Source: Candidatus Wukongarchaeum yapensis | GTDB lineage: Archaea > Asgardarchaeota > Wukongarchaeia > Wukongarchaeales > Wukongarchaeaceae | NCBI GenBank assembly: GCA_016840425.1 | Contig: JAEOSI010000080.1 | Coordinates: forward strand, 1 to 8,896 | Length of the DNA stretch: 8,896 bases | Reading direction: 5' to 3' | Shown: one piece after another, positions 1 through 8,896 of the stretch | How the letters are laid out: each line of letters opens with the position of its first letter | Position numbering within the stretch: position 1 is the stretch's first letter | Made by a program: the position numbers and the translations under genes | Notes under the pieces: generated by a model | The model's input: only the letters and a program-made list of their open reading frames with translations | Database searches by the model: none | Told to the model about the DNA's origin: nothing

Positions 1-128
1 ATTTTATTTTACATTTTGTTATCCTTGTTCCTCTCTTTCAAAATTTGAAAAAATAGGGTAATAAAAAGGAAAGCGAAGTAAGCCCTACTTTTATAAATTT
101 TTACCGTTTTTAATCCTTCTACTTTTCC

Positions 129-1256
129 TTATTCTGGGTTTGGGGCGGCTGTTTCAGGGACTACTGGTTTTGGTAATGGTTTTGGAGCCCCGAATTTTTT
201 CGGGGTTCCGTCTTCTGTGAAGAAGTATTTTTGAGCCCATAGAGAGAAGTAAACAAGGATGATTAGGACCGGAACCTCTATGAGGGGTCCTATAACGGTG
301 GCTAGTGCCTGTCCGCTTGTGATCCCCCAAGTGCCAACTGCTACTGCTATGGCTAGCTCGAAGTTGTTGCTAGCAGCGGTAAATGAAAGGGTTGCAGTTT
401 CAGAGTACCGGAATTTTAAACGCCATGAGATCACGTAAGATATAGCGAACATCAAAACAAAGTAGAATAAGAGGGGAATAATTATCCTAGCAAGGTCTGC
501 GCCAAGCTCTACTATGTTTTTCCCTTGCATGGAAAACATTACTACGATGGTGAAAAGTAACCCTATCAAGGCGGTAGGGCCTAGTTTCTCCATTAAAACT
601 TCTTCATACCACTCCTTTCCTTTCTTTTTTACTCCTACGTACCGGGTTATTATTCCTCCTATCAACGGTATTCCTAAGAATATAAACACACTTTTCGCAA
701 TATCAAGCATGGTTATACTCACTGTTGCTGATTCTCCAAGGATCCAGCCAGACATCACCGTGATGAAAAAGTAAGCATAAACCGAATAAAACAGGATCTG
801 AAAAATGGAGTTTAAAGCCACAAGGACGGCGCAGTACTCATTATGCCCTCCTGCAAGCATATTCCATATAAGAACCATGGCGATACATCTCGCCAAGCCC
901 GTAACTATCAAACCTTCTCTGTATTCAGGGTAGCCAGCTAAAAATATCAATGCAAGGGTAAACATGAGCCAAGGCCCTATAATCCAGTTTAAGAAACCAG
1001 AAACCCCAAATAACTTAAACTCACTAGCAACTTTGGAGAGCTCTTCATATCTTACTTTCGCGAGAACAGGGTACATCATCCATAAAAGCCCAATGGCTAT
1101 GGGAAGCGATACCGTTCCAAACTGTACAGCCTTGAAGAAATCTTGGATTCCTGGAACAAACCCTAAAAGAATCCCTATTACCATAGCGATGCCGATCCAC
1201 AAAGGGAGAAAACGATCTATTATGGACAACCTACCGATAACCCTCGTCTGAGACAA
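129..1256 (-). CDS. acr3: Acr3-family arsenite efflux transporter
   Basis: 375-aa hydrophobic ORF with about 10 TM-like segments. It has the Acr3 signature motifs DRFLPLWI, MMYPVLAKV, GLARCIAMV (essential Cys), ASNNFELAIAVA and GPLIEVPVL. TTG start at 1254-1256, with SD-like AGGCGGT on the minus strand at 1261-1267. Confidence 0.96.
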   Translation of the reverse strand: MSQTRVIGRLSIIDRFLPLWIGIAMVIGILLGFVPGIQDFFKAVQFGTVSLPIAIGLLWMMYPVLAKVRYEELSKVASEFKLFGVSGFLNWIIGPWLMFTLALIFLAGYPEYREGLIVTGLARCIAMVLIWNMLAGGHNEYCAVLVALNSIFQILFYSVYAYFFITVMSGWILGESATVSITMLDIAKSVFIFLGIPLIGGIITRYVGVKKKGKEWYEEVLMEKLGPTALIGLLFTIVVMFSMQGKNIVELGADLARIIIPLLFYFVLMFAISYVISWRLKFRYSETATLSFTAASNNFELAIAVAVGTWGITSGQALATVIGPLIEVPVLIILVYFSLWAQKYFFTEDGTPKKFGAPKPLPKPVVPETAAPNPE

Positions 1257-1473: not shown

Positions 1474-1887
1474 ATGTGCAAATGCAAAGAAAAGACGGAA
1501 GAAGCCGATTTTGGAGTCGCGATGCTCGCCTGTTCAGGCGGATCAGCGACTGGTCTATTGACCATTAACGCCGCTGCCAGAGTTCAAAACGAGCTGGGAC
1601 TAGAAAAAGCGGGAATCCTATGTCTTTCGGGAATATCCGCTAGAATTCCAGGCTTCCTAAACGCCGTGAAGAGATACAAAGGACTTTTAGTAATAGACGG
1701 TTGTTCCGCTGAGTGCGCCTCAAAGACCCTAGAAGTTGCGGGAATAACACCGGACAGGCAGATTATAATACCCAAAGACTGCAAAATAAGCAAGAAAACC
1801 AAAGTCGTCGGCGAAAAGGAGATGAACACAGTAACGGAAGAAATCAAGAGAAAAGTAGAAGATATCCTAAACGGGAATAAGAAGTAA
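1474..1887 (+). CDS. DGC-domain putative zinc/metal-binding protein
   Basis: 137 aa with ACSGGS (C20), a central Cys (C50) and VIDGCSAEC (C77, C81), the pattern of the DGC family. It also has an N-terminal CxC (C2, C4) and a good SD site. Confidence 0.88.
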   Translation: MCKCKEKTEEADFGVAMLACSGGSATGLLTINAAARVQNELGLEKAGILCLSGISARIPGFLNAVKRYKGLLVIDGCSAECASKTLEVAGITPDRQIIIPKDCKISKKTKVVGEKEMNTVTEEIKRKVEDILNGNKK

Positions 1888-2308: not shown

Positions 2309-2686
2309 TTAAAGTTTATTTGAAGCTAATTCTTCTATTTTTTCCAGTAACTTCTTTCCAAGCACGTCTGTTAGGGAATAAAAATTCCACTTCCCCCTGC
2401 TTCTTCCCCTTACTATTCCAGCATTTTCCAGCATATTAAGATGATAAGAAATTGTAGGTTGAGAAAGGCTAAGGGCTATCGTAAGCTCACAAACACACAT
2501 TTCCCGTGCCTTAAGAAGCTTAATAATCGTTAACCTATTCGGGTCAGCTAAACTTTTAAAAATCTGCACCTCTTTTCTAAGGTTTTCGTTTTGGAGGAAA
2601 CTTTTAGCCAATTCTATGAGCTCATTCCTGTGTTTTTCAACATCTTCTAGGTTACATTCTTCAACAAGTTTTTCCAGAGAGGGCAT
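2309..2686 (-). CDS. arsR: ArsR/SmtB-family metal(loid)-sensing transcriptional repressor
   Basis: 125 aa with FKSLADPNRLTII, the alpha3 metal box EMCVCEL (C64, C66), HTH LSQPTISYHLNMLENAGIV and wing RGKWNFYSL. SD-like GGAGTG upstream. Located near acr3. Confidence 0.93.
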   Translation of the reverse strand: MPSLEKLVEECNLEDVEKHRNELIELAKSFLQNENLRKEVQIFKSLADPNRLTIIKLLKAREMCVCELTIALSLSQPTISYHLNMLENAGIVRGRSRGKWNFYSLTDVLGKKLLEKIEELASNKL

Positions 2687-2871: not shown

Positions 2872-4257
2872 TTGAGGGCTTTGGATTCTTTTCGGGAATT
2901 TTTATTTTTGTCTGAGAAAAATGGGCTTTTAAAACGTTTTTCCTCTCCTTTATCTCCTGAGTTTGAATGCGCTTACTTAATGCGATGTTATGATGGCAAA
3001 GAAACGCTCGTCTTTGAAAATATTGAAGGTTATAATGACTTAAAAATCGCGGCCGGAGTTTATAATACTCGTCAGAAAATAGCTTTAGGGCTGGGTGTTT
3101 CTGTCAAAGAACTCCTTTCCAAGATAACAGAAGCTATACGCTGTCCTGGGCTAGAAATCGAAGAAGCGGATCTTGGGGAAGCCCCTGTCCGTGAAATAAT
3201 CGCTAAAGGCCCTAATATTAGGCAAGAGTTGCCTGTTTTGCGCCATTATGAACAAGAAACCCACCCTTATATGACAAGCAGTGTAGTGATCTGTAAAGAC
3301 CCTAGAAACGGCAGGATTAACGCTTCATATCACAGAATAAAAGTGTTGAGTGATAAAAAATTAACATTAAGGCTTGTAGAAGGAAGAACGCTCTACAACT
3401 TTCATAAGATGGCTGAGGAGACGGATCAACCTCTAGAGGTGGCAGTTGTCATAGGATTGGATCCCCCTGCAGCAATAGCTTCCGCCATAAGCGCTGGTAA
3501 CGTAAGTGAATTTGGAATAGCTTCCGCCCTCTTAGGAAAACCCTACGAAATGACTCCAGGTATCACGGTGGATCTACCCGTACCTGCTAATGCTGAAATA
3601 GTCCTTGAAGGAATAATTTTACCCCATGAAAGGGCAAAAGAAGGACCATTTGTAGAGCTGGGAGGTGTAGATATCATAAGAGACCAGCCTATAATGGAAG
3701 TATCCCTGTTATCGATGAGAGAAAACGCTTTCTACCAAGCTTTACTTCCTGCTGGAAAAGAACACCAACTTTTACAAGGAATGCCCTGCGAATCTACAAT
3801 TTTTGAAGCTGCAAAAAAACATGCCAAAATAGTTGGAGTGAATATGACCCCAGGCGGGGCTGGTTGGTTGGAAGTCGCAATAGCCATCGAGAAAAATCAT
3901 CCATATATCCCAAAAGTAGTAGCAATGGCTGCAATTCACGCCCACTCAAGTTTAAAAACAGTGATAGTTGTAGACGAGGACGTGGATATATACGATTATG
4001 AAGAGCTTTATAAGACCATATTACAAAGAGCAAACCCCTCAACAGATCTCCTCATAGTAGAGGGTATCCGAGGCTCATCCCTTGACCACAGCAATCTCCG
4101 CATAGAGGGAGAAAGGGTTGTTGAACTCCCCCCCAGCAAGCTGATAATTGACGCCACAATAAAAGGTCCAAAAGAACTTTTCCAAAAAGCTACGATACCC
4201 CTTACAGAAAACGTGAAAAAAATAGTTTTTATGGACAAGGAGGAAAGTTCAAGCTAA
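2872..4257 (+). CDS. UbiD-family prFMN-dependent decarboxylase, probably trans-anhydromevalonate 5-phosphate decarboxylase (AMPD)
   Basis: 461 aa with UbiD motifs PYMTSSVV, INASYHR, VAVVIGLDP, PVPANAEIVLEG, EGPFVE (catalytic acid motif), KTVIVVDEDVD and KLIIDAT. Family assignment is strong. AMPD specificity is inferred from the EGPFV..D..R.QP style of the motif and from the adjacent AcnX gene. Confidence 0.92.
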   Translation: MRALDSFREFLFLSEKNGLLKRFSSPLSPEFECAYLMRCYDGKETLVFENIEGYNDLKIAAGVYNTRQKIALGLGVSVKELLSKITEAIRCPGLEIEEADLGEAPVREIIAKGPNIRQELPVLRHYEQETHPYMTSSVVICKDPRNGRINASYHRIKVLSDKKLTLRLVEGRTLYNFHKMAEETDQPLEVAVVIGLDPPAAIASAISAGNVSEFGIASALLGKPYEMTPGITVDLPVPANAEIVLEGIILPHERAKEGPFVELGGVDIIRDQPIMEVSLLSMRENAFYQALLPAGKEHQLLQGMPCESTIFEAAKKHAKIVGVNMTPGGAGWLEVAIAIEKNHPYIPKVVAMAAIHAHSSLKTVIVVDEDVDIYDYEELYKTILQRANPSTDLLIVEGIRGSSLDHSNLRIEGERVVELPPSKLIIDATIKGPKELFQKATIPLTENVKKIVFMDKEESSS

Positions 4258-4275: not shown

Positions 4276-5790
4276 ATGACTGATAATAATGATGAGGAAA
4301 CAGGAGACGTTTTGGAAACTGAAAAGGCTATCAGATGGCTTGACGGCGTTGATATCCAAACAGGAATAATAACCCAAGAAGACCACCCGTTGGAAGGGGT
4401 TTCAATGGCAGGAAAAACTCTCATCATGCCTAAATCTGCCGGTTCAACGGTAGGCACTTACAGGCTTTTTGCCCTGATTAAAAACCGTAAAGCTCCGAAG
4501 AAAATAGTTTTGAAGGAGTATGATGCAATAACTCTTCCTGCTATCCTTTTCGGCGTTGAAGTAGAGATCACAAGAACTTGCAAAAAGAATGAAAGGGGTG
4601 TTTATGTAGACGAAGCTGATGTTTTAGGACTTCCAAGCGAGTTTTTAGATTACTTAAAGAAGGAAGCAGAGCTTGCAGGTTCTGAAAGGTTAGTGCCAGT
4701 AACTTCTGCTCAAATTTCAGGCGTAAGTTATAAAACAATAACCGATGCTGGTCTTGATTTTATTCAAAGCTTTGTCGAAAAGGGTTATAAAGTGCGTGTT
4801 CTAACCACGTTAAACCCTGCAGGGATGGATTTTGATGAATGGGAAACAATGGGAGTACCTGAAAATTTTGCAGTAAAACAAAAACGCATTGCCAAAGCAT
4901 TTCTAAAACTTGGAGTAACCCCCACTTTTACTTGTACCCCCTATCTTTGTGGAAATGTACCAATGTTTGGAGACCATATAGCATGGGCGGAAAGCAGTGC
5001 AGTAATATTTGCAAACTCCGTACTGGGAGCACGCACCGAACGGGAAGGATCAGCAAAAAGCCTTATCGCAGCGATTTGCGGTTTAACTTCGATGTGCGGT
5101 GCACATCTTATGGAGAACAGGATTCCAACCCACATAATTAATCTCGACTTCATGCCAAAAACTTTGAACGAGTATAGCTTGATCGGAATGTTTATTGGAG
5201 AAAAATTCGGAAGCGGACAGCAAAGATGTACCCCCTATCTTAGGTTTAAAAGCAAAAAATTAACCTTAGACCAGTTAAAAGCCTTAGGCGCTGGTCTTGC
5301 AACCTCCGGATCGATATCAGTTTATCACGTGGAAAATGTTACCCCTGAAGCAAAAACCAGCCTAATAACTCCTGAAAATGCTGAAGAGACTTTTAAATGC
5401 TCCAAAGAGGAAATCAAAGCTATTATGAAGAAGTTAACAACCACAGGGGAAAAACCAGACCTTATCACTTTAGGATGCCCACATGCCTCAATAACAGAGA
5501 TCTCAGAAATAGCAGAAACCCTCAAAGAAAAGAGATTAAAGATCCCTCTTTGGGTTTGCACAAGTAAACCTGTAAAAGAAATTGCAAAGAGACAAGGCTT
5601 TGAACGCATTATTAAAAGGTCGGGAGGTCTAATAGTAGCTGATACGTGCATGGTAGTAGCTCCCCTTGAAATGATGGGGTATAAAATCATAGGGACCAAC
5701 AGCTCAAAAGCAGCACATTATCTCAAATCTTTAAGCGGTTTAGATGTAGTTATTGCCTCCTTAAAAGAACTCATAGAGATAGCCACGTAA
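4276..5790 (+). CDS. acnX: Aconitase X, single-chain fusion of small (DUF126 swivel) and large (DUF521) subunits; probable phosphomevalonate dehydratase
   Basis: Residues about 10-115 carry small-subunit motifs GVDxxTG, GKTLIMP and GSTVG (catalytic Ser57). Residues about 135-504 carry SAQISGVSY, TTLNP, TCTPY (C220), AWAESSA, GARTxREG, GCPH (C401), DTCMVV (C458) and TNSSK. The frame is continuous. It starts 18 nt after the UbiD-family stop, with SD-like AGGGG. Confidence 0.92.
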   Translation: MTDNNDEETGDVLETEKAIRWLDGVDIQTGIITQEDHPLEGVSMAGKTLIMPKSAGSTVGTYRLFALIKNRKAPKKIVLKEYDAITLPAILFGVEVEITRTCKKNERGVYVDEADVLGLPSEFLDYLKKEAELAGSERLVPVTSAQISGVSYKTITDAGLDFIQSFVEKGYKVRVLTTLNPAGMDFDEWETMGVPENFAVKQKRIAKAFLKLGVTPTFTCTPYLCGNVPMFGDHIAWAESSAVIFANSVLGARTEREGSAKSLIAAICGLTSMCGAHLMENRIPTHIINLDFMPKTLNEYSLIGMFIGEKFGSGQQRCTPYLRFKSKKLTLDQLKALGAGLATSGSISVYHVENVTPEAKTSLITPENAEETFKCSKEEIKAIMKKLTTTGEKPDLITLGCPHASITEISEIAETLKEKRLKIPLWVCTSKPVKEIAKRQGFERIIKRSGGLIVADTCMVVAPLEMMGYKIIGTNSSKAAHYLKSLSGLDVVIASLKELIEIAT

Positions 5791-5847: not shown

Positions 5848-7221
5848 AAGTGTAGATTTTTCCTGCCTTTTTTCCCTACAAAAACCGGTAAACAGAGCAA
5901 TAATAGCAGAAAATCAACCATATAGTAGGGAGACTGGAATGGTGAAACTTGAAAATTTCCTTCCTAAAAACTCACAGAGGAAAAACAACAGAGAAGGGAG
6001 AAGGTAAGGAATATGAAAACGATGATTAGTTATAAGTTTAGGTTGTATCCAGACAAAAAGCAAGAGGAAAAGATGTTTGAAGTTCTTGATAGATGTAGGT
6101 TTGTCTATAACAAAATGTTAGAAGGTTTGAACAAGCAGGATAAGCCTAATAGGTTTGAGTTGCAAAACTCGCTTCCAGAGTTAAAAGAAAAATATCTGGA
6201 ATTGAAAAAAGTTTATTCTAAGGTTCTCCAATATGAATCATATAGGCTGTTTTCAAACCTTAGAAGCTTGGCGGGACTGAAGAAGAATGGTAAAAAAGTT
6301 GGGAGGCTTAGGTTCAAGGGTAAAGGATGGTTCAAAACTTTCACGTATAACCAGAGCGGGTTTAAAATCATAGAAACCAGTAAGAGACATGACTTGTTAC
6401 ATTTATCTAAAATCGGAGATATAAAGATTAGAATACATAGAAAGGTGGAAGGGAAGATAAAACAGGTAACAGTAAAGAGGTATAGTTCGGGCAGATGGTA
6501 TGCTTTTCTTTGTTACGAACAAATCATTCCCGATAAAAAAGAGGTTGAAAAAGTTGTAGGAATTGATGTGGGCATAATCCGCTACGTTACTGATACTGAC
6601 GGTAGACAAATAGAACATCCTCTTTATCTGAACAATTCTTTGAAAAGTTTGAGAAGAAATCAAAGAAAATTATCTAAGAAAAAGAAGGGATCGAACAATT
6701 ATAATAAGCAGAAAATAAAAGTTGCAAAAATGTATGAAAAGGTCAAAAACCAGAGGGATGATTTCTTACAAAAACTATCAAGGTTTTATGCTGACAATTA
6801 TGATTTTATAGCTGTCGAGAAATTAAACATAAAAGGTTTGATAAGGATAAGTTATAATGCTAGGAACGTAATGGACTCCTCTTGGAGAAAATTCGCACAA
6901 TTTCTGTCTTACAAGGCTGAAAGAGCTGGTAAGACGGTTGTAGAAGTGAATCCGAGAGGAACTACACAAGAATGTTATAAATGCGGTAAAGAAGTAAAGA
7001 AAAGCTTGGCTGTAAGAATCCACAAATGTCCTTACTGTGGGTTAGAAATTGAGAGAGACTACAATTCCTCATTTGTAGTTCTCAAAAGAGGTTTAGAAGA
7101 ACTGTTAGGGCAGGGACTGTCCGAATTTACGCCTGTGGAGATAGAACCTCTACCGAGAGAAATCTCAGCAAGTTCAGTCGTTGAAGCAGGAAGCTTTTTG
7201 CGATAGCTGGGAGCGGTTCAC
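5848..7221 (+). mobile_element. tnpB-only IS200/IS605-family element (IS1341-like), non-autonomous
   Basis: Contains tnpB and no tnpA. The right end has a subterminal hairpin and ends in TTCAC (7217-7221), typical of the family. The left boundary is inferred just after TTTAA (5843-5847), or at 5855 if the 7-nt AAGTGTA copy is host DNA, because joining there restores a clean 3' end for the HD gene. The right end is more certain than the left. Confidence 0.75.
6013..7206 (+). CDS. tnpB: TnpB RNA-guided endonuclease
   Basis: 397 aa with N-terminal YKFRLYP...RFVYN, RuvC-I GIDVG (D185), RuvC-II IAVEKL (E269), zinc finger CYKC/CPYC (C321, C324, C339, C342) and RuvC-III ERDYN (D349). Confidence 0.97.
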   Translation: MKTMISYKFRLYPDKKQEEKMFEVLDRCRFVYNKMLEGLNKQDKPNRFELQNSLPELKEKYLELKKVYSKVLQYESYRLFSNLRSLAGLKKNGKKVGRLRFKGKGWFKTFTYNQSGFKIIETSKRHDLLHLSKIGDIKIRIHRKVEGKIKQVTVKRYSSGRWYAFLCYEQIIPDKKEVEKVVGIDVGIIRYVTDTDGRQIEHPLYLNNSLKSLRRNQRKLSKKKKGSNNYNKQKIKVAKMYEKVKNQRDDFLQKLSRFYADNYDFIAVEKLNIKGLIRISYNARNVMDSSWRKFAQFLSYKAERAGKTVVEVNPRGTTQECYKCGKEVKKSLAVRIHKCPYCGLEIERDYNSSFVVLKRGLEELLGQGLSEFTPVEIEPLPREISASSVVEAGSFLR

Positions 7222-7241
7222 AAGTGTATGCTTGTAGCGAG
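7105..7241 (+). ncRNA. TnpB omegaRNA (reRNA): 3' scaffold plus guide
   Basis: Overlaps the tnpB 3' end. Visible elements are hairpin GGGCAG-gga-CTGTCC (7108-7122), CCTG (7132-7135) pairing with CAGG (7187-7190), GAAC/GTTC (7144-7147/7172-7175), GAGA-GAAA-TCTC (7155-7166), the right-end hairpin (7193-7214) and TTCAC. The predicted guide starts at 7222 (AAGUGUAUGCUUGUAGCGAG). The 5' end and guide length cannot be fixed from sequence. Confidence 0.8.
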
Positions 7242-8513
7242 TGTCGGGTCACCAAGAACTTTTTTCGCAGCTTTTTGTACCTTTTCTCTATACTTCTTTT
7301 CGCTATAAACTCTTAAAATACCGTAAAAACCGCGCATCACTTCGATAATTTTTGAGTATTCGGATAATTTTCCCCCGATTTTTCGATCTCCTTCCTCATA
7401 AAATACAGGGATCTCCATGGGTTCAAGCTCTATGCTGTGACGATAAGGTATGGATGGCAAGGTTGGCACATCGATTATCACGTTTTCTGGCGGTAAATCA
7501 GCTTTTTCTGCTATTTCCTGTTGCACACTTTCTCGAACTTTTTCCGTAGTAAAAATGCGGGAAAGCATCTCATCCTTGTGGTGTGAAACCCCCTCATACG
7601 CAACTTTTAAAAGGTTTCTTTTCCGAAGATCATCCATCAAAGTCTGCGATTCTGGTATTTCACTCAACTTCATCCATAATTTATAATCATCCCAAGAAAG
7701 ATACTCTTCAAGGGAAGGGTTTTTTAAAAGCTCTAACTCGTCTGAAGCCTTTTCAATGGCAAGAGTGATCATTAGCTGCGCTGCCCGCGAAACTTTATGA
7801 AAATAAACGCTCTTAAAACTAAACATTCTCGCCATGATAAAAGCTTCAAGGGCGGATAATGATGTAAGGTTTCCCGCTAAATTACCATCCACGACGCTTA
7901 CGGTGTAAAGAATTCTGAAAATATCAACCGCGCCATACTCTGCTCCCGAATGATAACTGTCCCGTAATATGTAATCCATTTTATCAACGTCAAGGGCGCT
8001 GGCCACAATCTGATCAAGAAACGGTTTTCCGGGCATGTTCAACCTCCCTACAGCCATGCTTGCAACCTTTCTTTTATCGATTCCTGCATCAGCTAAAATA
8101 TCCCCTATTTCTGTAGACATAATTATCTCAAAACTGAAATCTTCATGCGTTTTTCCAAGCATCTTAATAAGGTGAGGCTCAAGATTATGAGAAAAAGGAC
8201 CATGGCCCACATCATGAAGCAGTCCAGCACACTTAAACTCATAAATCTCCTCGTCGCTTATGAAAGCCTGCTCGTTCAAAACCCTTGCCATCTCTCCTGC
8301 AAGATGCATAACTCCTATCGAATGCTCAAACCTCGTATGATTTGCACCAGGATATGCATACTCAGCCCCAGAAAGCTGCTTTATACGTCTCAACCTTTGA
8401 ACAGGTAAAGTATCTATTATATCCTTCTCTAAATAAGAGATCCCCAAATAGCCAAAAATAGTATCTTTAATAAAGCTCCACGTAGCATGTTTCTTATCTG
8501 GGCTCGATTTCAT
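7218..8513 (-). CDS. HD-domain phosphohydrolase, SAMHD1-like dNTP triphosphohydrolase family
   Basis: 431 aa with QRLRRIKQLS, YPGANHTRFEHSIGV, GLLHDVGHGPFSH and LDVDKMDYILRDS, giving the full H...HD...D metal-binding set. Substrate not determinable from sequence. Confidence 0.93.
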   Translation of the reverse strand: MKSSPDKKHATWSFIKDTIFGYLGISYLEKDIIDTLPVQRLRRIKQLSGAEYAYPGANHTRFEHSIGVMHLAGEMARVLNEQAFISDEEIYEFKCAGLLHDVGHGPFSHNLEPHLIKMLGKTHEDFSFEIIMSTEIGDILADAGIDKRKVASMAVGRLNMPGKPFLDQIVASALDVDKMDYILRDSYHSGAEYGAVDIFRILYTVSVVDGNLAGNLTSLSALEAFIMARMFSFKSVYFHKVSRAAQLMITLAIEKASDELELLKNPSLEEYLSWDDYKLWMKLSEIPESQTLMDDLRKRNLLKVAYEGVSHHKDEMLSRIFTTEKVRESVQQEIAEKADLPPENVIIDVPTLPSIPYRHSIELEPMEIPVFYEEGDRKIGGKLSEYSKIIEVMRGFYGILRVYSEKKYREKVQKAAKKVLGDPTLATSIHL

Positions 8514-8579: not shown

Positions 8580-8873
8580 TCAAGGACGCAAATACGCAGC
8601 AACCTCTTCTTGAAGTTCATCTCTTAACATTAGAACAGTTTTCACCTCTATATCTTCTGCCTCTCTCACCGGGTTCTTAAGCTGTATCACGTTTCCAACA
8701 TTTTGAATATTCTCTATATCCACAGGAAATTCAACGCCAAGACCTTTAATCACCATCTCGACTTTCACAGGGTTTACACGAATCTTCACGCTACGAACAA
8801 TTCCTATCCGTCGCGCAGAACCATCGATCACCTCTTTTCCCACAAACCTACCAGGAATACTAAGCTCATACAA
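8580..8873 (-). CDS. PRC-barrel-like small protein (5' end may lie outside the window)
   Basis: FVGKEVIDGSARRIGIVRSVKI and FPVDIENIQNVGNVIQL match the PRC-barrel pattern (GxxVxDxxGxxIGxV ... IxxVGxVI). The listed start is a TTG and the frame stays open to the window edge (NNSIEAE-LYEL), so the true start is uncertain. Confidence 0.7.
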   Translation of the reverse strand: MYELSIPGRFVGKEVIDGSARRIGIVRSVKIRVNPVKVEMVIKGLGVEFPVDIENIQNVGNVIQLKNPVREAEDIEVKTVLMLRDELQEEVAAYLRP

Positions 8874-8896
8874 CTCCGCTTCAATACTGTTGTTAA

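What the first reader, a model, noticed from the sequence alone, without database searches (positions are those of the whole stretch)
4276..5790. Natural single-chain, archaeal-type aconitase X (probable phosphomevalonate dehydratase)
Seen: one uninterrupted 504-aa frame with the swivel domain first and the large domain second. It keeps the catalytic Ser57 and three Cys (C220, C401, C458) in the TCTPY, GCPH and DTCMVV motifs. Established: characterised archaeal phosphomevalonate dehydratases (Aeropyrum, Thermococcus, Methanosarcina) are two-subunit [4Fe-4S] enzymes, while the characterised single-chain AcnX enzymes are bacterial cis-3-hydroxy-L-proline dehydratases. Inference: this is an independent fusion of archaeal-type subunits. 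It looks compact, since the small subunit's N-terminal GRxIxxG strand and the large subunit's first roughly 30 residues (MYLTxEEE..G..G) are not recognisable. A one-gene enzyme would be useful for engineering the ATP-saving archaeal mevalonate pathway and could mark a lineage.
Basis: partly seen in the sequence, partly recalled or inferred. Interest (0 to 1): 0.75.

Follow-up and report, generated by a model that had tools for sequence, protein, structure and literature searches.

The report
Single-chain archaeal phosphomevalonate dehydratase gene
An Asgard archaeon makes its probable phosphomevalonate dehydratase, normally a two-subunit enzyme of archaeal lipid-precursor synthesis, as one 504-residue protein; the gene is real, but it belongs to a fused form already common in uncultured archaea and is not a one-off.

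Summary
Window 4276-5790(+) is an intact 504-aa ORF with an AcnX swivel domain first and the catalytic domain second. Ser57, Cys220, Cys401 and Cys458 sit in the named motifs.

It is archaeal-type, not bacterial type I. It has the type IIb cluster-cysteine pattern, keeps the mevalonate-5-phosphate contacts of T. kodakarensis AcnX, and both domains fall in archaeal clades.

It lies 18 nt after the genome's only UbiD decarboxylase. It is the only AcnX in a 92%-complete MAG that has MVK, IPK, HMGR and UbiX but no diphospho- or phosphomevalonate decarboxylase. It is therefore very probably the phosphomevalonate dehydratase.

The junction is not an artefact: it appears in three other metagenome contigs, a 90% orthologue and four sequencing runs.

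It is not a lineage-specific fusion. All sampled swivel-first archaeal fusions (Korarchaeia and other Thermoproteota, Thermoplasmata, Micrarchaeia, Parvarchaeota, Helarchaeota, this genus) form one clade in both domain trees. They share the same trimmed swivel domain and the same linker motif.

Sampled Asgard relatives carry split genes in large-then-small order, so this genus probably acquired the fused gene.

I found no paper describing this swivel-first class. Earlier notes of this scan report large-then-small fusions on other DNA.

The parts
4276..5790 (+). acnX, a single-chain swivel-first aconitase X of 504 aa; probable phosphomevalonate dehydratase
   Evidence: ORF. Pfam AcnX_swivel plus AcnX. 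AF2 model pLDDT 91.8, pTM 0.91. It is the only AcnX in the genome.
4303..4569 (+). Swivel domain (aconitase domain 4), residues ~10-98. It carries the catalytic Ser57 (codon 4444-4446) in GSTVG and is trimmed at both ends relative to split small subunits.
   Evidence: Aligns with 7cnr_B over 89 of 131 columns, rmsd 1.5-1.7. Aligns with AF0055 (2hi6) residues 16-108 of 132. The alignment shows the missing N-terminal strand and C-terminal hairpin.
4570..4599 (+). Short inter-domain linker, residues ~99-108; the least confident part of the model
   Evidence: Mean pLDDT is 63 for residues 101-110. Length and sequence vary among fused homologues.
4600..5787 (+). Catalytic part (aconitase domains 1-2-3), residues 109-504. 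Cluster ligands are C220 (4933-4935), C401 (5476-5478) and C458 (5647-5649). It also holds the MVA5P-contact residues.
   Evidence: VIA-align to 7cnr_A: Z 51.8, rmsd 1.8, 376 of 386 residues, model 109-504 against chain 1-386. Residue table.
2872..4257 (+). [quoted passage not shown]
   Evidence: Pfam UbiD_N, UbiD and UbiD_C; TIGR00148 at 302 bits. It is the only UbiD in the genome. All listed relatives that carry an organism name are archaeal, and one is named 'Anhydromev...' by UniRef. A ubiD-acnX operon recurs in many archaeal loci. M. mazei has MM_1526 (AMPD), MM_1525 (PMDh-L) and MM_1524 (PMDh-S) (PMC12547664).

Best explanation
The gene encodes a monomeric [4Fe-4S] phosphomevalonate dehydratase (PMDh), the enzyme that converts mevalonate 5-phosphate to trans-anhydromevalonate 5-phosphate. 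The upstream UbiD enzyme, supplied with prenyl-FMN by UbiX, then decarboxylates that product to isopentenyl phosphate, which IPK phosphorylates.

The N-terminal swivel domain supplies the catalytic Ser57 and closes over the cluster held by C220, C401 and C458 in the C-terminal domains, as in the T. kodakarensis heterodimer. Here the two parts are joined covalently in the order 4-1-2-3.

The gene belongs to one single-origin clade of swivel-first archaeal fusions. That clade lost the first strand and the last hairpin of the small subunit. This Asgard genus most likely acquired the gene, together with or next to ubiD, in place of the split large-then-small genes seen in the other Asgard genomes sampled.

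Shown here: the architecture, residue conservation, phylogeny, gene context and pathway complement. Inferred: the enzyme activity, the cluster type, and the direction of transfer.
For: Family and subtype:
- The best solved relative is the T. kodakarensis type IIb large subunit (E 1e-87, against 4e-67 to 9e-69 for A. tumefaciens type I, whose large-domain stretch scores 193-199 bits against 298). The swivel scores 64.5 bits against TK1248 and 35 bits against the type I domain.
- The NCBIfam hydroxyproline-dehydratase equivalog scores 314 bits against a 700-bit cut-off.
- Cysteines are at sites A, 1 and B, with Val at site C (DTCMVV). This is the type IIb pattern given in PMC10040528. Type I has Ser or Asn at site 1 and DxCWC.

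Substrate contacts:
- The TkAcnX MVA5P contacts listed in PMC8184944 are kept: S57, T58, V59, G149, V150, S151, N180, E239, S240, S241, K478, Y482.
- Only Tk Asn53 differs: it is Thr154 here, and Thr in 28 of 30 fused forms.

Structure:
- AF2 pLDDT 91.8. The large part matches 7cnr_A at Z 51.8. The whole chain matches type I 7cnp at Z 42.3 with the same domain order.

Context:
- ubiD lies 18 nt upstream.
- The genome has one AcnX, one swivel domain and one UbiD.
- It has MVK and IPK adjacent on C125, HMGR and UbiX, and no DMD or PMD above cut-off.
- ubiD directly precedes acnX in 9 of 16 other fused loci and lies closely upstream in many split loci.

Evolution:
- Fused forms are one clade in the large-domain tree with the junction excluded (92/86) and in the swivel tree (100/99).
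- In the earlier 54-row set, the AU test does not reject a single fused clade (lnL +3.7, p 0.60).
- Fused forms share the end deletions and the G-[IVL]-P-x-E-[FI]..[YF]-L linker motif.
- In 300 other genomes sampled from the phylum, the 150 best matches listed are large-domain only (ORFs mostly ~400 aa). In the 29 loci fetched the order is large-then-small wherever the small gene is in the locus.
Against: No enzyme assay exists for any member of the swivel-first archaeal clade that I could find, so activity and cluster type are inferred.

Thr154 replaces a phosphate-contacting Asn of TkAcnX.

I found no transcript evidence.

The MAG is 92% complete, so a split PMDh or a decarboxylase of another pathway could lie in the missing part.

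Transfer into this genus is not proven. A tree joining the query with the Asgard split forms is 11.7 lnL worse but is not rejected (p-AU 0.25).

The monophyly of fused forms could be inflated by shared constraints after fusion.
Confidence: 0.85

Rival explanations
1. The fusion arose independently within this Asgard genus from its own vertically inherited subunit genes. Its likeness to other fused forms would then be convergent.
For: The query clade sits on a long branch (0.68-0.75) inside a polytomy of the fused clade. The AU test does not reject grouping it with the Asgard split forms (p 0.25). Its highest identities, 49-52%, are to split large subunits and not to fused ones at 42-47%.
Against: Both domain trees put it inside one fused clade, at 92/86 and 100/99. 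It shares the same two swivel-end deletions and the same linker motif with fused forms of other phyla. The Asgard operons sampled are ordered large-then-small, so a local fusion would have needed a rearrangement as well.
Confidence: 0.1
2. The AcnX-UbiD pair serves another dehydration-decarboxylation route, for example on a hydroxy acid unrelated to mevalonate, and isoprenoid precursors are made some other way.
For: The closest solved UbiD relative is 6h6x/6h6v at 233 bits, and JGI names several relatives '2,5-furandicarboxylate decarboxylase'. No member of the clade has been assayed. Thr154 replaces a phosphate contact.
Against: This is the only AcnX and the only UbiD in a genome that has MVK, IPK, HMGR and UbiX and no alternative decarboxylase. 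All other MVA5P contacts are conserved. The same operon type is the characterised M. mazei AMPD/PMDh locus (PMC12547664).
Confidence: 0.07
3. [quoted passage not shown]
For: It has the same 4-1-2-3 domain order and a whole-chain structural match to A. tumefaciens AcnX: TM 0.86-0.87, Z 42.3.
Against: The NCBIfam equivalog scores 314 bits against a 700-bit cut-off. The type I ligand Cys at site C is absent and the site 1 Cys is present. The hydroxyproline-specific residues are replaced: type I has Asp, Cys and Ile at positions 148, 150 and 151, Thr at 59 and Trp at 22, where this protein has Ser, Val, Ser, Val and Leu (PMC8184944). Archaeal and bacterial sequences separate at 97/94. No hydroxyproline catabolism genes lie nearby.
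Confidence: 0.02
4. The single ORF is an assembly or binning artefact: two genes joined by error, or a contig from another organism.
For: The window is a short 8.9-kb contig of a 277-contig MAG with an IS element next to the gene.
Against: The same ORF is on three independent contigs, in a 90% orthologue, and covered without indels in four runs. Contig GC and tetranucleotide make-up are typical of the MAG. The TnpB element has many copies elsewhere in the MAG. A same-genus MAG has the syntenic DGC-arsR-ubiD stretch at 80-90% identity, ending at a contig break just after ubiD. An independent 15.5-kb contig joins C17, C59 and C89.
Confidence: 0.02

Closest known systems
Type IIb aconitase X, the archaeal phosphomevalonate dehydratase (A. 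pernix APE_2087.1/APE_2089; T. kodakarensis, PDB 7CNR/7CNS, small subunit TK1248; M. mazei MM_1525/MM_1524)
   Same: Cluster cysteines at sites A, 1 and B. The catalytic Ser, the Glu-Ser-Ser, Lys and Tyr residues and the phosphate-loop residues. Large part 42-44% identical to 7cnr_A, with rmsd 1.8 over 376 residues. Archaeal clade. Adjacency to the UbiD decarboxylase gene.
   Different: One chain instead of two subunits, with the swivel domain first although split operons encode large then small. The swivel lacks about 15 N-terminal and about 25 C-terminal residues. The MYLTxEEE..G..G motif is replaced. Tk Asn53 is Thr. This protein has not been assayed.
[quoted passage not shown]
   Same: A single polypeptide with 4-linker-1-2-3 order. 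Whole-chain structural match at Z 42.3, with 486 residues aligned.
   Different: About 30% identity. [2Fe-2S] ligands at sites A, B and C against A, 1 and B here. Different substrate-specific residues. Type I keeps the swivel N-terminal strand, the C-terminal extension and the LTxxDxxxLxGxxG motif. It falls in a separate bacterial clade, so its fusion is independent.
Uncharacterised swivel-first fused AcnX proteins of uncultured archaea in public databases (Korarchaeota RLG53534.1; Thermoplasmata; Micrarchaeia; Ca. Jingweiarchaeum/Parvarchaeota; Helarchaeota contig JAHPZH010000001.1)
   Same: The same architecture, the same trimmed swivel, the same linker motif and the same invariant active-site residues. 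One clade in both domain trees. ubiD is directly upstream in many of them.
   Different: Only 42-47% identical. The query and its 90% orthologue form their own long branch. At 504 aa it is slightly longer than the usual 475-500 aa. Its host is a different Asgard lineage.
Large-then-small single-chain AcnX (Poseidoniales, from earlier notes of this scan) and the PMDh of Ca. Promineifilum breve (Kanno et al. 2024, Appl Environ Microbiol 90:e0110624; not readable here)
   Same: Single-chain AcnX proteins assigned to the archaeal mevalonate pathway.
   Different: By those notes, the Poseidoniales proteins have the opposite domain order and are about 580-590 aa long, so they are separate fusion events.

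Membership tests
Aconitase X family (Pfam PF04412 AcnX + PF01989 AcnX_swivel) | Both domains match above the curated cut-offs | tested here: met
   445.4 bits against 31.5, and 67.1 bits against 27
Type IIb AcnX / phosphomevalonate dehydratase | Cluster cysteines at site A, site 1 and site B, with no Cys at site C (PMC10040528) | tested here: met
   C220, C401 and C458 are present and position 460 is Val. These are invariant in 30 fused and 27 non-Asgard split archaeal sequences; in the 11 Asgard split sequences position 460 is Val in 9 and Ala in 2.
Type IIb AcnX / phosphomevalonate dehydratase | MVA5P-binding and catalytic residues of TkAcnX (S62, T63 and V64 of the small subunit; G48, V49, S50, N53, N79, E129, S130, S131, K361 and Y365 of the large subunit; PMC8184944) | tested here: met
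   All are conserved (S57, T58, V59, G149, V150, S151, N180, E239, S240, S241, K478, Y482) except N53, which is T154 here. That position is also S or T in split euryarchaeal forms.
Type IIb AcnX / phosphomevalonate dehydratase | Separate large and small subunits (the definition of 'type II' in PMC8184944 and PMC10040528) | tested here: not met
   A single 504-aa chain, confirmed in independent assemblies and runs
Type IIb AcnX / phosphomevalonate dehydratase | Phylogenetic placement with archaeal sequences, apart from bacterial types I and II | tested here: met
   Archaeal and bacterial sequences split at 97/94 in the large-domain tree. In the swivel tree the fused clade has 100/99 support; the bacterial rows there are not one side of a branch.
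Type IIb AcnX / phosphomevalonate dehydratase | Pathway context: AMPD (UbiD), UbiX, MVK and IPK present, and no other route from mevalonate 5-phosphate | tested here: met
   ubiD is adjacent. There is one AcnX and one UbiD. MVK, IPK, UbiX and HMGR were found. The best TIGR01240 hit is 23 bits against a 171-bit cut-off. The genome is 92% complete.
Type IIb AcnX / phosphomevalonate dehydratase | Dehydration of (R)-mevalonate 5-phosphate to trans-anhydromevalonate 5-phosphate with a [4Fe-4S] cluster | not testable with these tools
   Needs anaerobic expression, cluster reconstitution and an assay
[quoted passage not shown] | NCBIfam equivalog NF051439 above its cut-off | tested here: not met
   313.8 bits against a 700-bit cut-off
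[quoted passage not shown] | [2Fe-2S] ligands at sites A, B and C (DxCWC) with Ser at site 1, plus the hydroxyproline-contact residues | tested here: not met
   The query has DTCMVV and GCPH. It has S148, V150, S151 and V59 where type I has D, C, I and T.
[quoted passage not shown] | A single polypeptide in 4-linker-1-2-3 order | tested here: met
   Whole-chain alignment to 7cnp_A: Z 42.3, 486 residues. The shared order reflects an independent fusion.

The most novel reading that the evidence does not exclude
Swivel-first, end-trimmed single-chain AcnX would be an undescribed third architecture of phosphomevalonate dehydratase. It would have arisen once, independently of bacterial type I, by joining domain 4 in front of domains 1-2-3 even though the ancestral gene order was large-then-small. 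It would have lost the small subunit's terminal strands, possibly because a covalent linker made them unnecessary for holding the subunits together. It would then have spread by gene transfer across at least five or six archaeal phyla and displaced the split genes in this Asgard genus. It would be a natural one-gene PMDh for pathway engineering.
Probability: 0.5. Interest if true: 0.5.

Novelty: new variant of a known kind. Interest (0 to 1): 0.4.

Why it matters
Phosphomevalonate dehydratase is the oxygen-sensitive step that is thought to limit the ATP-saving archaeal mevalonate pathway, and the forms used in E. coli need two subunits in equal amounts (PMC10040528, PMC12547664). A natural monomeric form about 30-40 residues shorter than a subunit pair is an easy candidate to test for simpler expression.

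For evolution, it shows that the aconitase superfamily reached the 4-1-2-3 order at least twice within AcnX alone. It also shows that a core lipid-pathway gene in an Asgard archaeon, a lineage used to discuss the origin of eukaryotic isoprenoid synthesis (PMC11052028), is probably not vertically inherited. That is a caution for pathway phylogenies that score 'AcnX1/AcnX2' presence.

The gain is modest. The function is the expected one, and the architecture is already common, though unremarked, in databases.

Tried and rejected
- Literature. Hayakawa 2018 (PMC6176645), Yoshida 2020 (PMC7054082) and Kanno 2024 (PMC11337835) are not held. I could not check whether they mention fused forms. Text searches for AcnX, DUF521/DUF126 and 'anhydromevalonate + fused' found no description of a swivel-first archaeal enzyme. 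One search was badly chosen and returned noise.
- The AU test on the 155-row tree did not finish in 288 s. I repeated it on 54 rows.
- The first trees left the fused forms in a polytomy with 2 changes. Adding named loci resolved one clade.
- The same-genus genome G002 gave no AcnX match. This is not absence: its ubiD contig ends directly after ubiD.
- The search for related loci coverage figures overstated fusions. Many loci listed as covering about residues 10-500 are split large-then-small genes whose tblastn pieces were joined. Only 16 of 80 are true single ORFs.
- Expression. There is no evidence either way.
- No solved AMPD structure was found for the UbiD neighbour.
- Complex prediction and the representative-library search were not used. 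They would not have changed the conclusion.
Full report
**What is there**

The window is the whole 8,896-base contig C59 of a 2.16-Mb, 277-contig MAG that is 92% complete. Positions 4276-5790(+) hold one uninterrupted 504-codon frame.

Pfam places an AcnX swivel domain at residues 22-91 and the AcnX catalytic region at 124-501. All four are invariant across 26 fused homologues.

**The junction is real**

- The identical protein is encoded on three independently assembled JGI metagenome contigs (L042-L044).
- A 90%-identical orthologue lies on an ENA contig with the same arsR-ubiD-acnX order (L045).
- Contigs from four sequencing runs of four studies cover the gene without any indel or joint. 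A 194-nt unitig spans 4510-4703.

**The contig belongs to the MAG**

- Its GC content and tetranucleotide make-up are typical of the MAG.
- Its TnpB element has many 78-90% identical copies and fragments on other contigs.
- A same-genus MAG carries the syntenic DGC-arsR-ubiD stretch at 80-90% identity.
- The 15.5-kb contig L042 joins C17, C59 and C89 end to end.
- The genome encodes a 375-aa actin that scores 445 bits. This fits the Asgard assignment made in earlier notes of this scan.

**Which kind of AcnX**

By sequence, the best solved relative is the T. kodakarensis type IIb large subunit (E 1e-87; 298 bits). A. tumefaciens type I scores 229-236 bits over both domains. The swivel domain scores 64.5 bits against TK1248 and 35 bits against the type I domain. 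[quoted passage not shown]

PMC10040528 gives the discriminating cluster ligands. Type I uses Cys at sites A, B and C. PMDh uses sites A, 1 and B. The query has C220 (A), C401 (1) and C458 (B), with Val at site C. The type I sequences I fetched have GSPH or GNPH and DxCWC.

PMC8184944 lists the TkAcnX residues that bind mevalonate 5-phosphate. All are conserved here: S57, T58, V59, G149, V150, S151, N180, E239, S240, S241, K478 and Y482. The one exception is Tk Asn53, which is Thr154 here. That position is Thr in 28 of 30 fused forms, Ser or Thr in split euryarchaeal forms, and Asn in most Asgard split forms. At the positions where type I contacts the pyrrolidine ring (Asp, Cys, Ile, Thr, Trp), the query has the PMDh-like residues.

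**Structure**

An AF2 model built on 26 fused homologues is confident: pLDDT 91.8 and pTM 0.91. The only weak stretches are residues 1-9 and the linker around 101-110.

- Large part: residues 109-504 align with all of the Tk large subunit (chain residues 1-386; 376 aligned, rmsd 1.8, Z 51.8).
- Whole chain: it aligns with type I AtAcnX (486 residues, Z 42.3).
- Swivel: residues 11-103 align with residues 16-108 of the 132-residue AF0055 small subunit.

The large subunit's N-terminal segment is therefore not deleted. Only its MYLTxEEE..G..G sequence motif is gone. What is really missing is the first strand ('LKGRxIxxGxAxG') and the last hairpin ('GDxLxVDADxGxVxI') of the small subunit. Bacterial type I keeps both, and also keeps the LTxxDxxxLxGxxG motif.

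**Context and function**

A UbiD-family decarboxylase gene ends 18 nt upstream on the same strand. It is the only UbiD in the genome. All of its listed relatives that carry an organism name are archaeal, and UniRef names one of them an anhydromevalonate phosphate decarboxylase.

The genome has a single AcnX and a single swivel domain. It also has:

- mevalonate kinase and isopentenyl phosphate kinase side by side on C125;
- HMG-CoA reductase;
- UbiX, which by the L042 bridge ends only 2.85 kb before window position 1.

Nothing resembling diphospho- or phosphomevalonate decarboxylase was found; the best hit is 23 bits against a 171-bit cut-off.

M. mazei has the characterised trio MM_1526 (AMPD), MM_1525 (PMDh-L) and MM_1524 (PMDh-S) (PMC12547664). 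PMC11052028 notes AMPD and AcnX on one contig in Hodarchaeales.

The simplest reading is that this gene is the organism's phosphomevalonate dehydratase. I put that at about 0.85. The activity has not been tested.

**How common is the fusion, and did it arise here?**

A protein search returned 60-odd clusters of 475-540-aa swivel-first archaeal proteins at 42-47% identity (plus one cluster at 90%). Those that are named carry labels from Parvarchaeota/Ca. Jingweiarchaeum, Micrarchaeia and Thermoplasmata. One cluster includes Korarchaeota records.

A scan of species-representative genomes returned 80 loci. After I checked the ORFs, 16 of them are true single-ORF fusions:

- Thermoproteota, including 'Kor1';
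- records labelled Nitrososphaerota or Crenarchaeota;
- Thermoplasmata;
- Micrarchaeia;
- one Helarchaeota.

Nine of the 16 have ubiD directly upstream. Many other loci, from Thermoplasmata, Hadesarchaea, Bathyarchaeia, Methanomassiliicoccales and Micrarchaeota, have the order ubiD, large, small.

Within the window's own phylum, the 150 best matches listed from 300 other sampled genomes cover only the large domain, in ORFs of mostly about 400 aa. In the 29 loci I fetched, the small gene, where it is in the locus, follows the large one.

A careful 74-row tree of the large domain, with the junction excluded, gives:

- archaea against bacteria: 97/94;
- all 30 fused forms as one clade: 92/86;
- that clade as sister to 27 split forms, mostly euryarchaeal or Thermoplasmatota (with a few Micrarchaeota and Bathyarchaeia): 98/92;
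- the two together, excluding the Asgard split forms: 94/96.

The swivel-domain tree gives one fused clade at 100/99. In the earlier 54-row set, forcing the fused forms together even raised the likelihood (p-AU 0.60). Forcing the query to group with the Asgard split forms cost 11.7 lnL but was not rejected (p 0.25).

Together with the shared end deletions and the shared linker motif, this points to one ancient fusion that is independent of type I. This genus then acquired the fused gene later. It does not point to a fusion specific to this lineage. The opposite gene order in split operons means the fusion was never a simple loss of a stop codon.

**Novelty**

The papers I could read describe archaeal PMDh only as a two-subunit enzyme (PMC8184944, PMC10040528, PMC11052028, PMC12547664). 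I found no description of this swivel-first class.

Three key papers were not available to me. One of them is Kanno et al. 2024 on Ca. Earlier notes also report large-then-small single-chain AcnX in Poseidoniales on other DNA. None reports the swivel-first class.

I therefore rate this a new variant of a known kind, of moderate interest. It is real, sensibly interpreted and potentially handy for engineering. However, its function is the expected one and its architecture is already widespread in databases.

Noticed in passing
window 6013-7206 (+): A 397-aa IS200/IS605-type TnpB (RNA-guided endonuclease family) sits 222 nt after acnX. The same MAG holds about a dozen copies and fragments at 78-90% identity, and the same-genus MAG holds several more. 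The 90% orthologous locus L045 has no TnpB after acnX, so this looks like a recent insertion.
   Followed up: partly
window 129-1256 (-), 1474-1887 (+), 2309-2686 (-): An arsenic-resistance-like trio lies upstream of ubiD: an ACR3 arsenite efflux transporter, a DGC-domain protein and an ArsR/SmtB regulator. The arsR gene is divergent from ubiD here, but on the same strand directly before ubiD in L045.
   Followed up: no
G000 C17:7085-7627; window 1-144 and 8753-8896: The window's first and last 144 bases are identical to the end of contig C17 and the start of C89. The independent contig L042 confirms the order C17, C59, C89. This puts UbiX (prenyl-FMN synthase) about 5.7 kb upstream of ubiD, a loose ubiX...ubiD-acnX neighbourhood that the MAG's fragmentation hides.
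   Followed up: yes
loci L013-L041, L056, L057, L070-L137: Wherever AcnX is split and the small-subunit gene was found in the locus, it follows the large-subunit gene, in archaea and in bacterial type II alike. Yet both fused classes examined here (bacterial type I and the archaeal swivel-first class) put the small domain first. Two independent fusions thus reached the same permuted order.
   Followed up: partly
alignment A1, columns ~233-241 (query residues 233-241): The Thermoplasmata/Micrarchaeia subclade of fused forms has D-A-F-L-S-E-S-S where the query, the Korarchaeia-type fusions and TkAcnX have H-[IV]-x-W-x-E-S-S, next to the catalytic Glu. The meaning is unknown.
   Followed up: no
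window 7218-8513 (-): A 431-aa HD plus HD_assoc_2 protein with weak dGTP-triphosphohydrolase-like matches is convergent with the TnpB gene. A 97-aa ORF with a weak, sub-threshold PRC-barrel match lies at 8580-8873 (-).
   Followed up: no
L079 (JAFGIB010000338.1): A 7-kb contig labelled 'Deltaproteobacteria bacterium' carries split AcnX genes that branch among archaeal sequences. It is probably a misbinned archaeal contig.
   Followed up: no
G000 C125:738-2553; C156:3717-4838; C62:8-790: mvk and ipk are adjacent on C125. There are two HMG-CoA reductase matches, one full-length and one at a contig edge. The second could be a paralogue or a strain duplicate.
   Followed up: no
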